Origin: a phage
DNA length: 64,000 bases
Reading direction: 5' to 3' (one strand)
Sequence record: PZ445454.1
Below, piece after piece: positions 60,964 to 62,357 of the stretch. The position numbers and the translations under genes were made by a program. Under the pieces are notes generated by a model, which ran no database searches, had not been told where the DNA came from, and saw nothing but the letters and a program-made list of their open reading frames with translations. Each line of letters opens with the position of its first letter. Positions within the stretch are counted from its first letter, which is position 1.

Positions 60964-61038
60964 GGGAGATTGACGGTAATTGGTAAACCTACCATCCTTA
61001 GAAGTTGGTGTTTGAGGGTTCGAATCCCTTGTCTCCTA
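60964..61038 (+). tRNA. tRNA with UAG anticodon (Leu codon CUA) but apparently short variable arm
   Basis: Acceptor GGGAGAT/GTCTCCT, anticodon arm CCATC-CTTAGAA-GTTGG, T-arm GAGGG-TTCGAAT-CCCTT, discriminator A. Confidence 0.45.
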
Positions 61039-61048
61039 CCAAATTAAT

Positions 61049-61121
61049 GCAGGTGTAGCAAAATGGTTATGCGGCTGACTCTTAATCAGTAAGACGACGG
61101 GTTCAATTCCCTCCACCTGTA
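61049..61121 (+). tRNA. tRNA-Lys (anticodon CUU), tentative
   Basis: Acceptor GCAGGTG/CACCTGT, anticodon arm GCTGA-CTCTTAA-TCAGT, T-loop GGTTCAATTCC. Confidence 0.45.
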
Positions 61122-61129
61122 CCAAAAAT

Positions 61130-61202
61130 GGGGTCATAGTTTATATGGTTAAAATTCGAGTTTTGCAAACTTGGGAACTGAGTTCAACTCTCAGTGACTC
61201 CA
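61130..61202 (+). tRNA. tRNA-Ala (anticodon UGC)
   Basis: Acceptor GGGGTCA/TGACTCC, anticodon arm CGAGT-TTTGCAA-ACTTG, T-arm CTGAG-TTCAACT-CTCAG. Confidence 0.55.
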
Positions 61203-61211
61203 CCAATTAGT

Positions 61212-61283
61212 GCATCCATAGTTTAAACGGGAAAATTACAGTCTTCCAAACTGAGGTTGAGGGTTCGATTCCCTCTGGATGCT
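61212..61283 (+). tRNA. tRNA-Gly (anticodon UCC)
   Basis: Perfect acceptor GCATCCA/TGGATGC, anticodon loop CTTCCAA, T-arm GAGGG-TTCGATT-CCCTC. Confidence 0.6.
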
Positions 61284-61292
61284 CCAAACAAT

Positions 61293-61366
61293 GCTGCTTT
61301 CGTATAATTGGCTATTACACATCCCTTGTAAGGATGGAAATGCAGGTTCGAGTCCTGTGAGCAGCA
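61293..61366 (+). tRNA. tRNA-Thr (anticodon UGU)
   Basis: Acceptor GCTGCTT/GAGCAGC, anticodon arm CATCC-CTTGTAA-GGATG, T-loop GGTTCGAGTCC. Confidence 0.7.
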
Positions 61367-61464
61367 CCAATTCAGAGGTCAAGTGAAAGACCGCTGGTGT
61401 CAACTGAAGACCGTAACAAATTCCACGGAGTTGAGTTAGCGGCACAACTTCAGACCTCTTTCAC

Positions 61465-61536
61465 ACTCGCTTAGTTTATATGGTAAAACATCACCCTTAC
61501 AAGATGAAGAAAAAGGTTCGAGTCCTTTAGTGAGTA
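61465..61536 (+). tRNA. tRNA-Val (anticodon UAC)
   Basis: Acceptor ACTCGCT/AGTGAGT, D-arm GTTT-ATATGGTA-AAAC, anticodon loop CTTACAA, T-arm AAAGG-TTCGAGT-CCTTT. Confidence 0.55.
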
Positions 61537-61540
61537 CCAT

Positions 61541-61615
61541 GTTCCAGTATCCCAATTGGCAGAGGATGCAAGCTCAAACCTTGTATTAGTGACGGTTCGA
61601 ATCCGTCTTGGAACA
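61541..61615 (+). tRNA. tRNA with CAA anticodon (Leu codon UUG) but apparently short variable arm
   Basis: Acceptor GTTCCAG/TTGGAAC, anticodon arm GCAAG-CTCAAAC-CTTGT, T-arm GACGG-TTCGAAT-CCGTC, discriminator A. Confidence 0.45.
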
Positions 61616-61637
61616 CCAATTTTAAGAGGCTATTTAG

Positions 61638-62195
61638 ATGAGATATTTGAAGTATGCTTCATGGATTTTCCTAGCTTTACTAGAACCATTTGCAGCAACC
61701 CTAGCAGTCATCTTAGCACCTTTTGTAGTTCCATTCTACAGTGAGAAGAAAGGACATCTACCTTTTGGATTCAGATGGATGGAGACCTATGACAACCCGA
61801 TTGATGGTGATGAAGGCCACGTTAAAAGATGGGCTAAGATTAGAAAGATTGGTAAGCTGGGTGTCTACATGCAGAGAGTCGGATGGCTCTGGAGAAACAA
61901 AGCTTATAACTTCTCTTACCATGTATTAGGAAGAGATGTAAAAGATGTTACTAAGTGGAAAGGTAATATCAACGTAAGTTCTGACCCTGAAGATAATCAG
62001 ACAGGTTATCTCCTAATGTGGAACAACAATGCTTGGGGATTATTCGCTTTTATTCCGTCAATTAAAGTCTTTGGTAAACAGTTTTACTGGAGAATTTATG
62101 TTGGATGGAAACTAAAAAGTGTTGTCCCAGAAGAAAGAGCATTCTCAAGGGAAAGAGTTATGTTGGCATTCTTTATTCATCCACTGAGAAAGTAA
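61638..62195 (+). CDS. membrane-anchored hypothetical protein embedded in the tRNA array
   Basis: 185 aa; N-terminal TM helix; flanked on both sides by tRNA genes. Confidence 0.5.
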   Translation: MRYLKYASWIFLALLEPFAATLAVILAPFVVPFYSEKKGHLPFGFRWMETYDNPIDGDEGHVKRWAKIRKIGKLGVYMQRVGWLWRNKAYNFSYHVLGRDVKDVTKWKGNINVSSDPEDNQTGYLLMWNNNAWGLFAFIPSIKVFGKQFYWRIYVGWKLKSVVPEERAFSRERVMLAFFIHPLRK

Positions 62196-62203
62196 AGATT
62201 TAA

Positions 62204-62276
62204 AGGGGATTAGTTTACAAGGTTAAAACCTCGGTCTTTGAAATCGAAGAAGTTGGTTCAATTCCAACATCCCCCG
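62204..62276 (+). tRNA. tRNA-Gln (anticodon UUG)
   Basis: Acceptor AGGGGAT/ATCCCCC (1:72 mismatch), anticodon arm TCGGT-CTTTGAA-ATCGA, T-arm GTTGG-TTCAATT-CCAAC. Confidence 0.55.
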
Positions 62277-62281
62277 CCAAT

Positions 62282-62357
62282 GCTCCATTACTCCAATTGG
62301 CAGAGAGGCCAGACTTAAAATCTGTGTTATGTATCGGTTCGAATCCGATATGGAGTA
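62282..62357 (+). tRNA. tRNA with UAA anticodon (Leu codon UUA) but apparently short variable arm
   Basis: Acceptor GCTCCAT/ATGGAGT, D-arm similar to the tRNA at 61541, anticodon loop CTTAAAA, T-arm ATCGG-TTCGAAT-CCGAT, discriminator A. Confidence 0.45.

What the first reader, a model, noticed from the sequence alone, without database searches (positions are those of the whole stretch)
60964..62357. Three tRNAs with leucine anticodons (UAG, CAA, UAA) that look like class I tRNAs
tRNAs at 60964, 61541 and 62282 have well-paired acceptor stems, discriminator A and anticodon loops reading UAG, CAA and UAA, but are only 75-76 nt with 5-7 nt variable loops. Bacterial tRNA-Leu is normally class II with a long variable arm. 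They could be atypical Leu isoacceptors, tRNAs with altered identity, or mis-parsed by eye.
Basis: partly seen in the sequence, partly recalled or inferred. Interest (0 to 1): 0.6.

Follow-up and report, generated by a model that had tools for sequence, protein, structure and literature searches.

The report
Short-armed leucine tRNAs of a phage
A Felix O1-like phage carries three real leucine tRNA genes that lack the long extra arm bacterial leucine tRNAs normally have; this design is common in phages but rarely discussed, and nobody has tested how or why the host enzyme charges them.

Summary
ARAGORN and the Rfam tRNA model both call three tRNAs at 60964-61041, 61541-61618 and 62282-62360 (+), with anticodons UAG, CAA and UAA. 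Each has discriminator A73, an encoded CCA and a 4-7 nt variable loop. tRNA-Tyr (88 nt) and tRNA-Ser (90 nt) in the same 25-tRNA cluster keep long arms.

The window is a Felixounavirus, 97% identical to Escherichia phage finno. The three genes are conserved in about 260-350 deposited phage genomes and are mostly annotated tRNA-Leu.

They are not a local oddity. The same architecture occurs in T5-like, Erwinia, Aeromonas, Xanthomonas, Mycobacterium and Lactobacillus phages. In a sample of IMG/VR tRNA clusters chosen without regard to Leu, 31 of 109 Leu tRNAs (28%) were short.

Apart from the arm they have a tRNA-Leu body: a 3-bp D stem, the D loop AAUUGGNAGA as in E. coli tRNA-Leu, A14, A15-U48 and A73. 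E. coli LeuRS is reported to use these elements, not the arm. Covariation is strong.

Most likely they are leucine-accepting "type I" tRNAs charged by host LeuRS, serving UUA/UUG/CUN codons of an AT-rich phage. Charging is inferred, not shown. Why the arm is missing is open; evasion of nucleases that target the variable arm is a testable possibility.

The parts
60964..61041 (+). tRNA-Leu(UAG), 78 nt with encoded CCA. Anticodon at 60999-61001. G1.U72, A73, 4-5 nt variable loop ending in U48, anticodon loop CUUAGAA (A37, not G37), one U.U mismatch in the anticodon stem.
   Evidence: ARAGORN; Rfam RF00005 40.0 bits; 100% identical in 70 phage records and about 84% identical over its full length in T5-like phages.
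61541..61618 (+). tRNA-Leu(CAA), 78 nt with encoded CCA. Anticodon at 61575-61577. 3-bp D stem, D loop C-AAUUGGCAGA, A73, 5-6 nt variable loop ending in U48.
   Evidence: ARAGORN; Rfam 44.0 bits; at least 99% identical in 159 phage records; the long-Leu profile scores highest in the anticodon-blind classifier.
62282..62360 (+). tRNA-Leu(UAA), 79 nt with encoded CCA. Anticodon at 62316-62318. G1.U72, 3-bp D stem, D loop C-AAUUGGCAGA, A73, 7-nt variable loop ending in U48.
   Evidence: ARAGORN; Rfam 47.5 bits; at least 99% identical in 215 phage records including Felix O1; the long-Leu profile scores highest.
58577..63556 (+). The tRNA gene cluster that contains them: 25 tRNA genes on one strand, interspersed with two conserved ORFs (61638-62195, DUF7338; 62584-63381, DUF7217) and several non-coding spacers.
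   Evidence: ARAGORN; Rfam; annotation of phage finno; Pfam.
58431..58550 (+). Two sigma-70-like promoter matches just upstream of the cluster (58431-58459 and 58521-58550). A third, the best match at 11/12, lies inside the cluster at 59983-60011.
   Evidence: Consensus scan. These are matches only. The total number of matches is not above the shuffled expectation, so this is a weak inference.
63719..63736 (+). Terminator-like hairpin followed by a T run, downstream of the last tRNA.
   Evidence: Consensus scan.

Best explanation
These are three functional phage-encoded leucine tRNAs of the 'type I' kind: short variable loop, but otherwise a tRNA-Leu body. They are transcribed with the rest of the 25-gene cluster from host-type promoters and already carry the CCA end.

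Host leucyl-tRNA synthetase most likely charges them with leucine. In E. coli that enzyme is reported to ignore both the anticodon and the long arm. It reads A73 and the shape of the D-loop/T-loop corner (A14, the A15-U48 pair, the position of G18G19, A20a). All of these are kept here.

Together the three anticodons can read all the leucine codons the AT-rich phage prefers. UAA and CAA read UUA/UUG. UAG reads CUA/CUG and, if U34 is modified as in the host, CUU.

Shown: the genes, their fold, their conservation, their tRNA-Leu-like body and the phage's codon usage. Inferred: expression, charging with leucine, and use in translation.
For: Gene calls and structure.

Conservation: the three genes are found in 354, 291 and 263 phage records and are mostly annotated tRNA-Leu.

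Covariation across 21 short Leu tRNAs from 10 phages: 96.3% of cells are paired, 18 of 20 pairs show changes on both sides, and the covariation score is 0.986 against at most 0.172 for slid controls and 0.273 for shuffles. The anticodon stem of Leu(UAG) differs from the finno allele at all five pairs and still pairs.

Identity elements: E. coli tRNA-Leu has a 3-bp D stem and the D loop GAAUUGGUAGA; the window has CAAUUGGCAGA.

In an IMG/VR sample anchored on tRNA-Asp:
- Short Leu tRNAs have A73 in 30/31 and A14+A15-U48 in 29/30.
- Long Leu tRNAs have A73 in 73/75 and A14+A15-U48 in 69/69.
- Only 148/912 other class I tRNAs have A14, A15, U48 and A73 together.

Profile classifier with the anticodon masked and the variable region removed, its Leu model trained only on long-armed Leu:
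- Held-out long Leu: 45/46 assigned to Leu.
- Non-Leu tRNAs called Leu: 9/1062.
- Short Leu called Leu: 24/30 and 117/153.
- Window CAA and UAA score highest with Leu.

tRNAscan-SE isotype scores for the tRNAs with the same three anticodons in phage Sf14 rank Leu first: 67.4, 49.1 and 60.2 (PMC12482277).

Literature on E. coli LeuRS (review PMC9976931): A73, A15-U48, G18G19 and A20a are essential; the sequence and folding of the arm are not correlated with leucylation; variants lacking the arm remain active.

Codon usage in 50 window ORFs: UUA 24.9%, CUU 27.4%, UUG 14.3%, CUA 11.0%, CUG only 15.8%.
Against: No experiment on these tRNAs was found, whether on expression, charging or decoding.

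Fan et al. 2019 (PMC6614811) report that E. coli LeuRS could not charge the type I tRNA-Leu(CAA) of Streptomyces coelicolor, and they describe it as charging only type II. Charging of arm-less natural tRNAs by the enterobacterial enzyme therefore cannot be taken for granted.

The window's Leu(UAG) is the weakest case:
- It has the lowest Rfam score (40 bits).
- It has G1.U72, a U.U mismatch and an extra base in the D arm.
- In the blind classifier it scores Asp 28.0 against Leu 26.6.

Single-sequence folding energies are not clearly better than shuffles, with z from -0.3 to -1.8. This is usual for tRNAs.

The blind classifier is only 60% accurate overall, so it is supportive, not decisive.
Confidence: 0.78

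Rival explanations
1. Same molecules, different emphasis: the missing arm is an adaptation, not a historical accident. Host defence nucleases or toxins that recognise or cut the long variable arm of class II tRNAs would spare an arm-less tRNA-Leu. The phage could then keep translating leucine codons when host tRNA-Leu is destroyed. A milder version holds that losing the arm removes any risk of mischarging by SerRS, which reads arm length.
For: There is a precedent for tRNA-Tyr, another class II tRNA in bacteria. The PtuAB effectors of retron-Eco7 and Septu cut E. coli tRNA-Tyr in the variable loop, between U47 and C48. Swapping or deleting the variable loop of a phage tRNA-Tyr changes its ability to neutralise the defence (PMC12673091; PMC13096335).

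The T5-like tRNA-Tyr fetched here also has a shortened, unpaired variable region (81 nt).

Short Leu tRNAs are frequent in phage tRNA clusters: 28% of Leu tRNAs, against 0 of 48 Ser tRNAs. They coexist with long Leu tRNAs in 17 of 23 loci that have a short one, which suggests they are not simply replacements.
Against: I found no bacterial defence reported to target the variable arm of tRNA-Leu in the papers I could search.

Short Leu tRNAs also occur as single genes in many bacterial genomes, mostly Actinomycetota, where phage counter-defence is not the obvious reason.

tRNA-Ser and tRNA-Tyr in this same phage keep long arms. So there is no general pressure in this phage against long arms.
Confidence: 0.2
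2. The tRNAs have changed identity: they read leucine codons but carry another amino acid, or are charged ambiguously, and so recode phage proteins.
For: E. coli LeuRS failed on one natural type I tRNA-Leu (PMC6614811). Leu(UAG) scores marginally higher with an Asp profile than with the Leu profile in the blind classifier.
Against: The Leu-specific body is retained.

No determinant of another synthetase is visible in the sequences:
- There is no G3.U70 for alanine. The 3-70 pairs are G-C, U-A and U-A.
- There is no long arm for serine.
- Most other synthetases need their own anticodon, which these tRNAs lack.

Leucine codons make up 7.8% of the codons in window ORFs, so recoding them would be highly disruptive. 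The genes are nearly invariant across hundreds of phages that infect ordinary hosts.
Confidence: 0.05
3. They are not used in translation. They would be decoys for tRNA-binding host factors, processing signals within the cluster transcript, or decaying pseudogenes.
For: They have the lowest Rfam scores of the class I tRNAs in the cluster. Leu(UAG) has mismatches. The cluster also contains tRNA-like fragments that are not called as tRNAs.
Against: Compensatory changes occur in all four stems. The anticodon loops are canonical, with U33 and a purine at 37, and the T loops are canonical UUCGAAU. A73 and CCA are conserved. Sequence identity is near-perfect over hundreds of genomes. The three anticodons together cover the leucine codon boxes without redundancy.
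Confidence: 0.04

Closest known systems
E. coli / bacterial class II tRNA-Leu (leuQPV, leuT, leuU, leuW, leuX, leuZ)
   Same: Leucine anticodons; A73; U8-A14; A15-U48; a 3-bp D stem with an 11-nt D loop (E. coli GAAUUGGUAGA, window CAAUUGGCAGA); canonical T loop; encoded CCA.
   Different: There is no long variable arm: 4-7 unpaired nt instead of 12-15 nt with a stem. Two of the three have G1.U72 instead of G1-C72. Leu(UAG) has A37 where host CUN-reading tRNA-Leu has G37. Position 32 is C in the phage tRNAs and U in the host.
Type I tRNA-Leu(CAA) of Streptomyces coelicolor (Fan et al. 2019, PMC6614811) and animal mitochondrial tRNA-Leu
   Same: A leucine tRNA with a short variable loop that, in Streptomyces, coexists in one cell with long-armed tRNA-Leu and a single LeuRS.
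   Different: Here the tRNAs are viral and must be charged by an enterobacterial LeuRS, the enzyme that failed on the Streptomyces tRNA. In Streptomyces, A73 was reported not to be an identity element; here A73 is almost invariant. I did not compare the sequences directly.
Short-armed tRNA-Leu genes of other phages and of bacterial tRNA gene clusters
   Same: The same architecture occurs in T5-like, other Demerecviridae, Kolesnikvirus, Xanthomonas, Mycobacterium and Lactobacillus phages. It also occurs in many IMG/VR contigs. A short-loop tRNA-Leu(TAG) in a mycobacterial tRNA cluster was noted in passing by Behra et al. 2019 (PMC6582537). Leu(UAG) of the window is about 84% identical to the T5-like gene.
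   Different: Nothing essential; the window's genes belong to this group. Some relatives mix types. Pectobacterium phage Wc4 has a short UAG and a long UAA, whereas this phage has three short ones.
Phage tRNAs that resist tRNA-targeting defences (T5 tRNA-Lys versus PARIS; phage tRNA-Tyr versus retron-Eco7/Septu PtuAB)
   Same: A phage copy of a host tRNA that differs in a region a nuclease could use. For tRNA-Tyr that region is the variable loop.
   Different: No nuclease acting on tRNA-Leu is known from the sources I could search, and no resistance has been tested. This is a resemblance only.

Membership tests
tRNA (Rfam RF00005) | Cloverleaf with a 7-bp acceptor stem, D, anticodon and T arms, scoring above the curated threshold | tested here: met
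   40.0, 44.0 and 47.5 bits against a gathering score of 29; ARAGORN cloverleaves.
tRNA (Rfam RF00005) | Stems maintained by compensatory change among homologues | tested here: met
   96.3% paired; 18 of 20 pairs changed on both sides; covariation score 0.986 against at most 0.172 for slid controls.
Bacterial tRNA-Leu (class II) | Anticodon NAG or YAA | tested here: met
   UAG, CAA and UAA from two programs.
Bacterial tRNA-Leu (class II) | Discriminator A73 | tested here: met
   A in all three. Also A in 30/31 short and 73/75 long viral Leu tRNAs.
Bacterial tRNA-Leu (class II) | Corner elements used by E. coli LeuRS: U8-A14, A15-U48, G18G19 placed in a long D loop on a 3-bp D stem, A20a (PMC9976931) | tested here: met
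   CAA and UAA have the D loop CAAUUGGCAGA on a 3-bp stem, and the variable loop ends in U. UAG has the same motif with one extra base and a re-registered D stem, so it fits less exactly.
Bacterial tRNA-Leu (class II) | Long variable arm (more than 10 nt, with a stem) | tested here: not met
   4-7 unpaired nt. They are therefore not class II tRNAs, although they are leucine-type tRNAs.
Bacterial tRNA-Leu (class II) | Charged with leucine by LeuRS | not testable with these tools
   Requires aminoacylation assays. The literature is divided.
Type I tRNA-Leu (mitochondria, Streptomyces, phage and tRNA-array genes) | Leucine anticodon combined with a short variable loop of 4-7 nt | tested here: met
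Type I tRNA-Leu (mitochondria, Streptomyces, phage and tRNA-array genes) | Body more similar to tRNA-Leu than to other isotypes when the anticodon and variable region are ignored | tested here: met
   CAA and UAA score highest with the long-Leu profile; UAG is second by 1.4 bits. For the tRNAs with the same anticodons in phage Sf14, tRNAscan-SE ranks Leu first for all three. For UAG alone I would call the result inconclusive.
Phage tRNAs that evade tRNA-targeting defence | The host counterpart is cleaved or inactivated by a defence system and the phage copy resists or replaces it | not testable with these tools
   Only the tRNA-Tyr precedent exists.

The most novel reading that the evidence does not exclude
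Loss of the variable arm in phage leucine tRNAs is a selected counter-defence. Some enterobacterial immune nuclease or toxin would recognise class II tRNAs by their long arm, as PtuAB does for tRNA-Tyr. The arm-less tRNA-Leu set, which enterobacterial LeuRS would charge despite the published view that it accepts only type II tRNA-Leu, would keep phage translation running. If so, about a quarter of phage tRNA-Leu genes would mark an undiscovered class of arm-directed defence.
Probability: 0.15. Interest if true: 0.7.

Novelty: new member of a known kind. Interest (0 to 1): 0.42.

Why it matters
Textbooks state that bacterial tRNA-Leu is always class II. A 2019 study treated one type I tRNA-Leu in Streptomyces as a rarity and reported that E. 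coli LeuRS cannot charge it. Hundreds of sequenced coliphages and Salmonella phages, including Felix O1 and T5 relatives, carry only, or mostly, type I tRNA-Leu genes. In the sample taken here, roughly a quarter of phage tRNA-Leu genes are of this kind.

Either enterobacterial LeuRS does charge natural arm-less tRNA-Leu, which would sharpen what is known about leucine identity, or these conserved genes do something else.

The system is easy to test, because Felix O1 and T5 are laboratory phages. It also bears on the current question of whether phage tRNAs exist for codon supply or for escape from tRNA-targeting immunity.

For this particular window the result is ordinary: the genes are already deposited and annotated in close relatives.

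Tried and rejected
- **Mis-parse.** Rejected: ARAGORN and Rfam agree. Relaxed ARAGORN settings do not produce alternative long-arm folds.
- **Single-sequence folding as a test**. The energies are not clearly better than shuffles, and two of the three MFE folds are not cloverleaves. I judged this uninformative for tRNAs and relied on covariation instead.
- **Counting type I against type II Leu in whole collections by pattern.** I replaced this with a sample anchored on tRNA-Asp.
- **First version of the blind isotype classifier**. It lacked five models because some sequences contained ambiguous bases. It was rebuilt with 20 models, and only that result is used, except for the finno UAG allele score.
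- **A phage-encoded LeuRS.** None of the nine ORFs scanned (seven of the eleven ORFs of 350 aa or more, plus the two ORFs inside the cluster) is a synthetase. The window covers only about 64 of about 87 kb, so the rest of the genome was not checked.
- **Old T5 literature on tRNA-Leu sequence and charging.** It is not held in the library. My memory that T5 tRNAs were charged with E. coli enzymes in the 1970s-80s is unverified and is not used as evidence.
- **Search for a defence that targets tRNA-Leu**. Nothing specific was found.
- **tRNA-like stretches at 60520-60607, 59478-59560 and 59103-59133.** None is called as a tRNA even at relaxed thresholds.
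Full report
**What is there**

ARAGORN finds 25 tRNA genes on the + strand between 58577 and 63556. Three have leucine anticodons: UAG at 60964-61041, CAA at 61541-61618 and UAA at 62282-62360.

Their drawn cloverleaves show:
- a 7-bp acceptor stem;
- discriminator A and an encoded CCA;
- a 3-bp D stem under a large D loop;
- a 5-bp anticodon stem and a canonical T arm;
- only 4-7 unpaired bases where a bacterial tRNA-Leu has a 12-15 nt arm with its own stem.

The Rfam tRNA covariance model matches all three above threshold (40.0, 44.0 and 47.5 bits against 29) and aligns the same anticodons. The tRNA-Tyr (88 nt) and tRNA-Ser(UGA) (90 nt) of the same cluster do have long arms. 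The five kinds of E. coli K-12 tRNA-Leu gene that I fetched are 85-87 nt. The "mis-parsed" escape route is closed.

**Where the window comes from**

The 5.2-kb cluster is 97.4% identical to Escherichia phage finno. It is 95-97% identical to many other Felixounavirus genomes, with 349 records matching. The finno record annotates the same three genes as tRNA-Leu.

Taken singly, the three genes are found in 354, 291 and 263 phage records. The CAA and UAA genes are at least 99% identical in 159 and 215 records, Felix O1 itself among them.

Leu(UAG) exists as two alleles in the genus:
- The window's allele is shared at 100% identity by 70 records.
- The finno allele is 89.7% identical and differs at all five pairs of the anticodon stem, yet still pairs perfectly.

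**It is not peculiar to this phage**

Leu(UAG) has matches of about 84% identity over its full length in T5-like phages. I fetched tRNA regions from ten phages and ran ARAGORN on them.

| Phage (host or family) | Short tRNA-Leu | Long tRNA-Leu |
|---|---|---|
| T5-like BUCT632 | 2 | none found |
| 142-kb Salmonella phage (Demerecviridae) | 1 | 1 |
| Pectobacterium phage Wc4 | 1 | 1 |
| Erwinia phage Roscha1 | 3 | none found |
| Aeromonas phage TS3 | 3 | none found |
| Xanthomonas phage X1 | 1 | 2 |
| Mycobacterium phage PascalRango | 1 | none found |
| Lactobacillus phage LpeD | 3 | none found |
| T4 | none | 1 (87 nt, classical) |

It yielded 160 short Leu tRNAs.

For a sample not chosen on leucine, I anchored a second scan on a tRNA-Asp pattern. 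It returned 120 loci with 1215 tRNAs. Of 109 Leu tRNAs, 31 (28%) were short, 75 long and 3 intermediate. None of 48 Ser tRNAs was short.

Most listed hits were Actinomycetota, with some cyanobacteria and acidobacteria and no enterobacteria among those listed. In 83 of the 120 loci the short Leu gene stood alone, usually with anticodon UAA.

**Are they leucine tRNAs in body as well as in anticodon?**

According to the review of Giege and Eriani (PMC9976931), E. coli LeuRS depends on A73, the A15-U48 pair, G18G19 and A20a in the D loop, and the D/T-loop contacts. The same review says:
- the arm's sequence and folding are not correlated with leucylation;
- variants without the arm remain active.

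The window's CAA and UAA tRNAs have the D loop CAAUUGGCAGA on a 3-bp stem, against GAAUUGGUAGA on a 3-bp stem in E. coli tRNA-Leu. They also have U8, a variable loop ending in U, the T loop UUCGAAU, and A73. The UAG tRNA has the same motif with one inserted base and a shifted D stem.

Figures from the Asp-anchored viral sample:

| tRNA group | A73 | A14 + A15-U48 | 3-bp D stem |
|---|---|---|---|
| Short Leu | 30/31 | 29/30 | 24/31 |
| Long Leu | 73/75 | 69/69 | 54/75 |
| Other class I | 53% | see below | 17% |

Only 148 of 912 other class I tRNAs combine A14, A15, U48 and A73.

I then built 20 isotype profiles from that sample, with the anticodon masked and the variable region removed. The Leu profile used long-armed Leu tRNAs only.
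- The classifier is right for 60% of held-out non-Leu tRNAs.
- It calls only 9 of 1062 of them Leu.
- It recovers 45 of 46 held-out long Leu tRNAs.
- It assigns 24/30 and 117/153 short Leu tRNAs to the long-Leu profile.

For the window, CAA scores 19.6 against 15.2 for the next profile, and UAA scores 34.6 against 32.5. Both score highest with Leu. UAG scores Asp 28.0 against Leu 26.6. The finno allele of UAG scores highest with Leu.

Independently, a published table of tRNAscan-SE isotype scores covers tRNAs with the same three anticodons in Shigella phage Sf14, a Moogle-like myovirus. It ranks Leu first for all three: 67.4, 49.1 and 60.2 (PMC12482277). I did not align the Sf14 genes to the window; the sibling phage Sf13 is 98.7% identical for Leu(UAA). 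That paper never mentions the variable arm.

**Are they under selection as tRNAs?**

I aligned 21 short Leu tRNAs from ten phages and counted pairs for the cloverleaf.
- 96.3% of cells pair, against 59.5% in shuffles and 36-49% when partners are slid.
- 18 of 20 pairs show changes on both sides.
- The covariation score is 0.986, against 0.273 for shuffles and at most 0.172 for slid controls.

Two rows are slightly misaligned in the T stem because of the 7-nt loop, which can only lower these figures. Single-sequence folding energies are unremarkable, as is usual for tRNAs.

**What they are for**

The window has 38.8% G+C. In 50 non-overlapping ORFs, leucine codons are UUA 24.9%, CUU 27.4%, CUG 15.8%, UUG 14.3%, CUA 11.0% and CUC 6.8%. 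In E. coli, CUG makes up about half of leucine codons and CUA and UUA are rare; this is established knowledge quoted from memory.

The three anticodons cover the UUR box and the CUN box without redundancy.

Consensus promoter matches lie just upstream of the cluster and inside it, and a terminator-like hairpin follows it. These matches are weak evidence, because their total number is not above the shuffled expectation.

None of the nine ORFs I scanned in the window is a synthetase, so the host enzyme is the presumed charger.

**The open point**

Fan et al. 2019 (PMC6614811) found that E. coli LeuRS did not charge the type I tRNA-Leu(CAA) of Streptomyces coelicolor. They called the Streptomyces enzyme the only prokaryotic LeuRS able to charge both types, and they do not mention phages.

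This conflicts with the in-vitro work on arm-less E. coli tRNA-Leu variants. It means that charging of these phage tRNAs is an inference, not a fact. I found no experimental paper on the tRNA-Leu of Felix O1-like or T5-like phages in the library, and the 1980s T5 literature is not held. The only explicit remark I found on a short-loop tRNA-Leu in a mobile tRNA cluster is one sentence on mycobacteria (PMC6582537).

**Why short?**

I cannot decide this. One possibility is plain descent from an old type I lineage that LeuRS tolerates.

The more interesting one is escape from enzymes that use the long arm. The PtuAB effectors of retron-Eco7 and Septu cut E. coli tRNA-Tyr in its variable loop, and the variable loop of phage tRNA-Tyr determines whether it neutralises the defence.

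No such enzyme is known for tRNA-Leu in what I could search. This phage also keeps long arms on Tyr and Ser. I put this reading at about 0.15-0.2.

**Verdict**

The best reading is atypical but genuine leucine isoacceptors. The design is a member of a known but under-described kind (type I tRNA-Leu) that turns out to be common in phages. For this window it is already present and annotated in close relatives, so the interest is moderate. The useful product is the general point, and the clean experiment it suggests with laboratory phages.

Noticed in passing
window 63384-63476 (+): A 93-nt class II tRNA with a serine-type body has anticodon UCU, which reads arginine AGA. It differs by one base, G34 to U, from the tRNA-Ser(GCU) of finno, Roscha1 and others. 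None of 290 related phage records shares the U; the best matches are all 98.9% identical, which is one mismatch. SerRS ignores the anticodon, so if the base is real this tRNA could insert serine at AGA, which makes up 27% of the phage's arginine codons. It could also be a sequencing error or a private mutation. The blind classifier puts it with Ser only marginally (25.1 against 24.8).
   Followed up: partly
window 58746-59590 (+): There are four copies of a spacer element between tRNA genes. Each starts CAGAAGACC(N3-4)..CAGCAA and ends ..GGTCTGG(T), so the two ends can pair (AGACC/GGTCT). Copies start at 58746, 58913, 59368 and 59455. Function unknown.
   Followed up: partly
window 59478-59560 (+): Inside the fourth spacer element, a T arm plus 3' acceptor strand (GAAGGTTCGATTCCTTCACTCGGCA) is followed by a matching 5' acceptor strand plus D arm (GTCGAGTTGGTGTAATGGTAGCAC). 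This is tRNA halves in permuted order. Rfam gives a weak partial tRNA match (22 bits, E 0.47). ARAGORN finds nothing even at relaxed settings.
   Followed up: partly
window 60520-60607 (+): A tRNA-like stretch has a T arm, a 3' acceptor strand and CCA (GGGGTTCAACTCCTCCGTCCCATGCCA), plus a stem-loop containing CUUCCAACA. It is not called as a tRNA by ARAGORN or Rfam. No tRNA-Trp is called in this window, whereas the Erwinia and T5-like relatives have one.
   Followed up: partly
window 59588-59729 (+): A 22-nt inverted repeat, 95% complementary, encloses 98 nt between tRNA fragments and tRNA-Lys. It may be a structured small RNA. There was no Rfam match.
   Followed up: no
window 60964 and 62282; IMG/VR loci L016-L255: The first acceptor pair is G1.U72 in two of the window's three Leu tRNAs. 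It is also G1.U72 in about 40% of viral Leu tRNAs, whether short or long, against 13% of other viral class I tRNAs. I have no explanation.
   Followed up: partly
window 60997-61003: The CUN-reading Leu(UAG) has anticodon loop CUUAGAA, with A37, where E. coli tRNA-Leu(UAG/CAG/GAG) has G37, the site of m1G. About half of viral NAG-anticodon Leu tRNAs, short or long, also have A37.
   Followed up: partly
window 60990-61008 vs L001 3097-3115: Two alleles of Leu(UAG) circulate in Felixounavirus. They have entirely different but compensated anticodon stems: CCAUC/GUUGG with a U.U mismatch here, and UCUCG/CGAGA in finno. The rest of the gene is nearly identical. This looks like a stem swap by recombination.
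   Followed up: no
window 56997-58412 (+): The ORF immediately upstream of the tRNA cluster is annotated as a vWFA protein in finno. It matches DUF2828 and DUF7788. Its constant position next to the tRNA genes may be worth a look.
   Followed up: no
L002 5293-5373 (T5-like phage BUCT632): The tRNA-Tyr of the T5-like phage is only 81 nt, with a 9-nt unpaired variable region. The window's tRNA-Tyr is 88 nt with a stemmed arm. This fits published work that the variable loop of T5-type tRNA-Tyr is distinctive.
   Followed up: no
Genome-contig loci L256-L375: Short-armed tRNA-Leu genes, mostly with anticodon UAA and often standing alone, are frequent in Actinomycetota genomes (Nocardia, Gordonia, Mycobacterium, Rhodococcus, Arthrobacter). 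They also occur in tRNA arrays of cyanobacteria and acidobacteria. I did not determine whether they are chromosomal or prophage-borne.
   Followed up: partly
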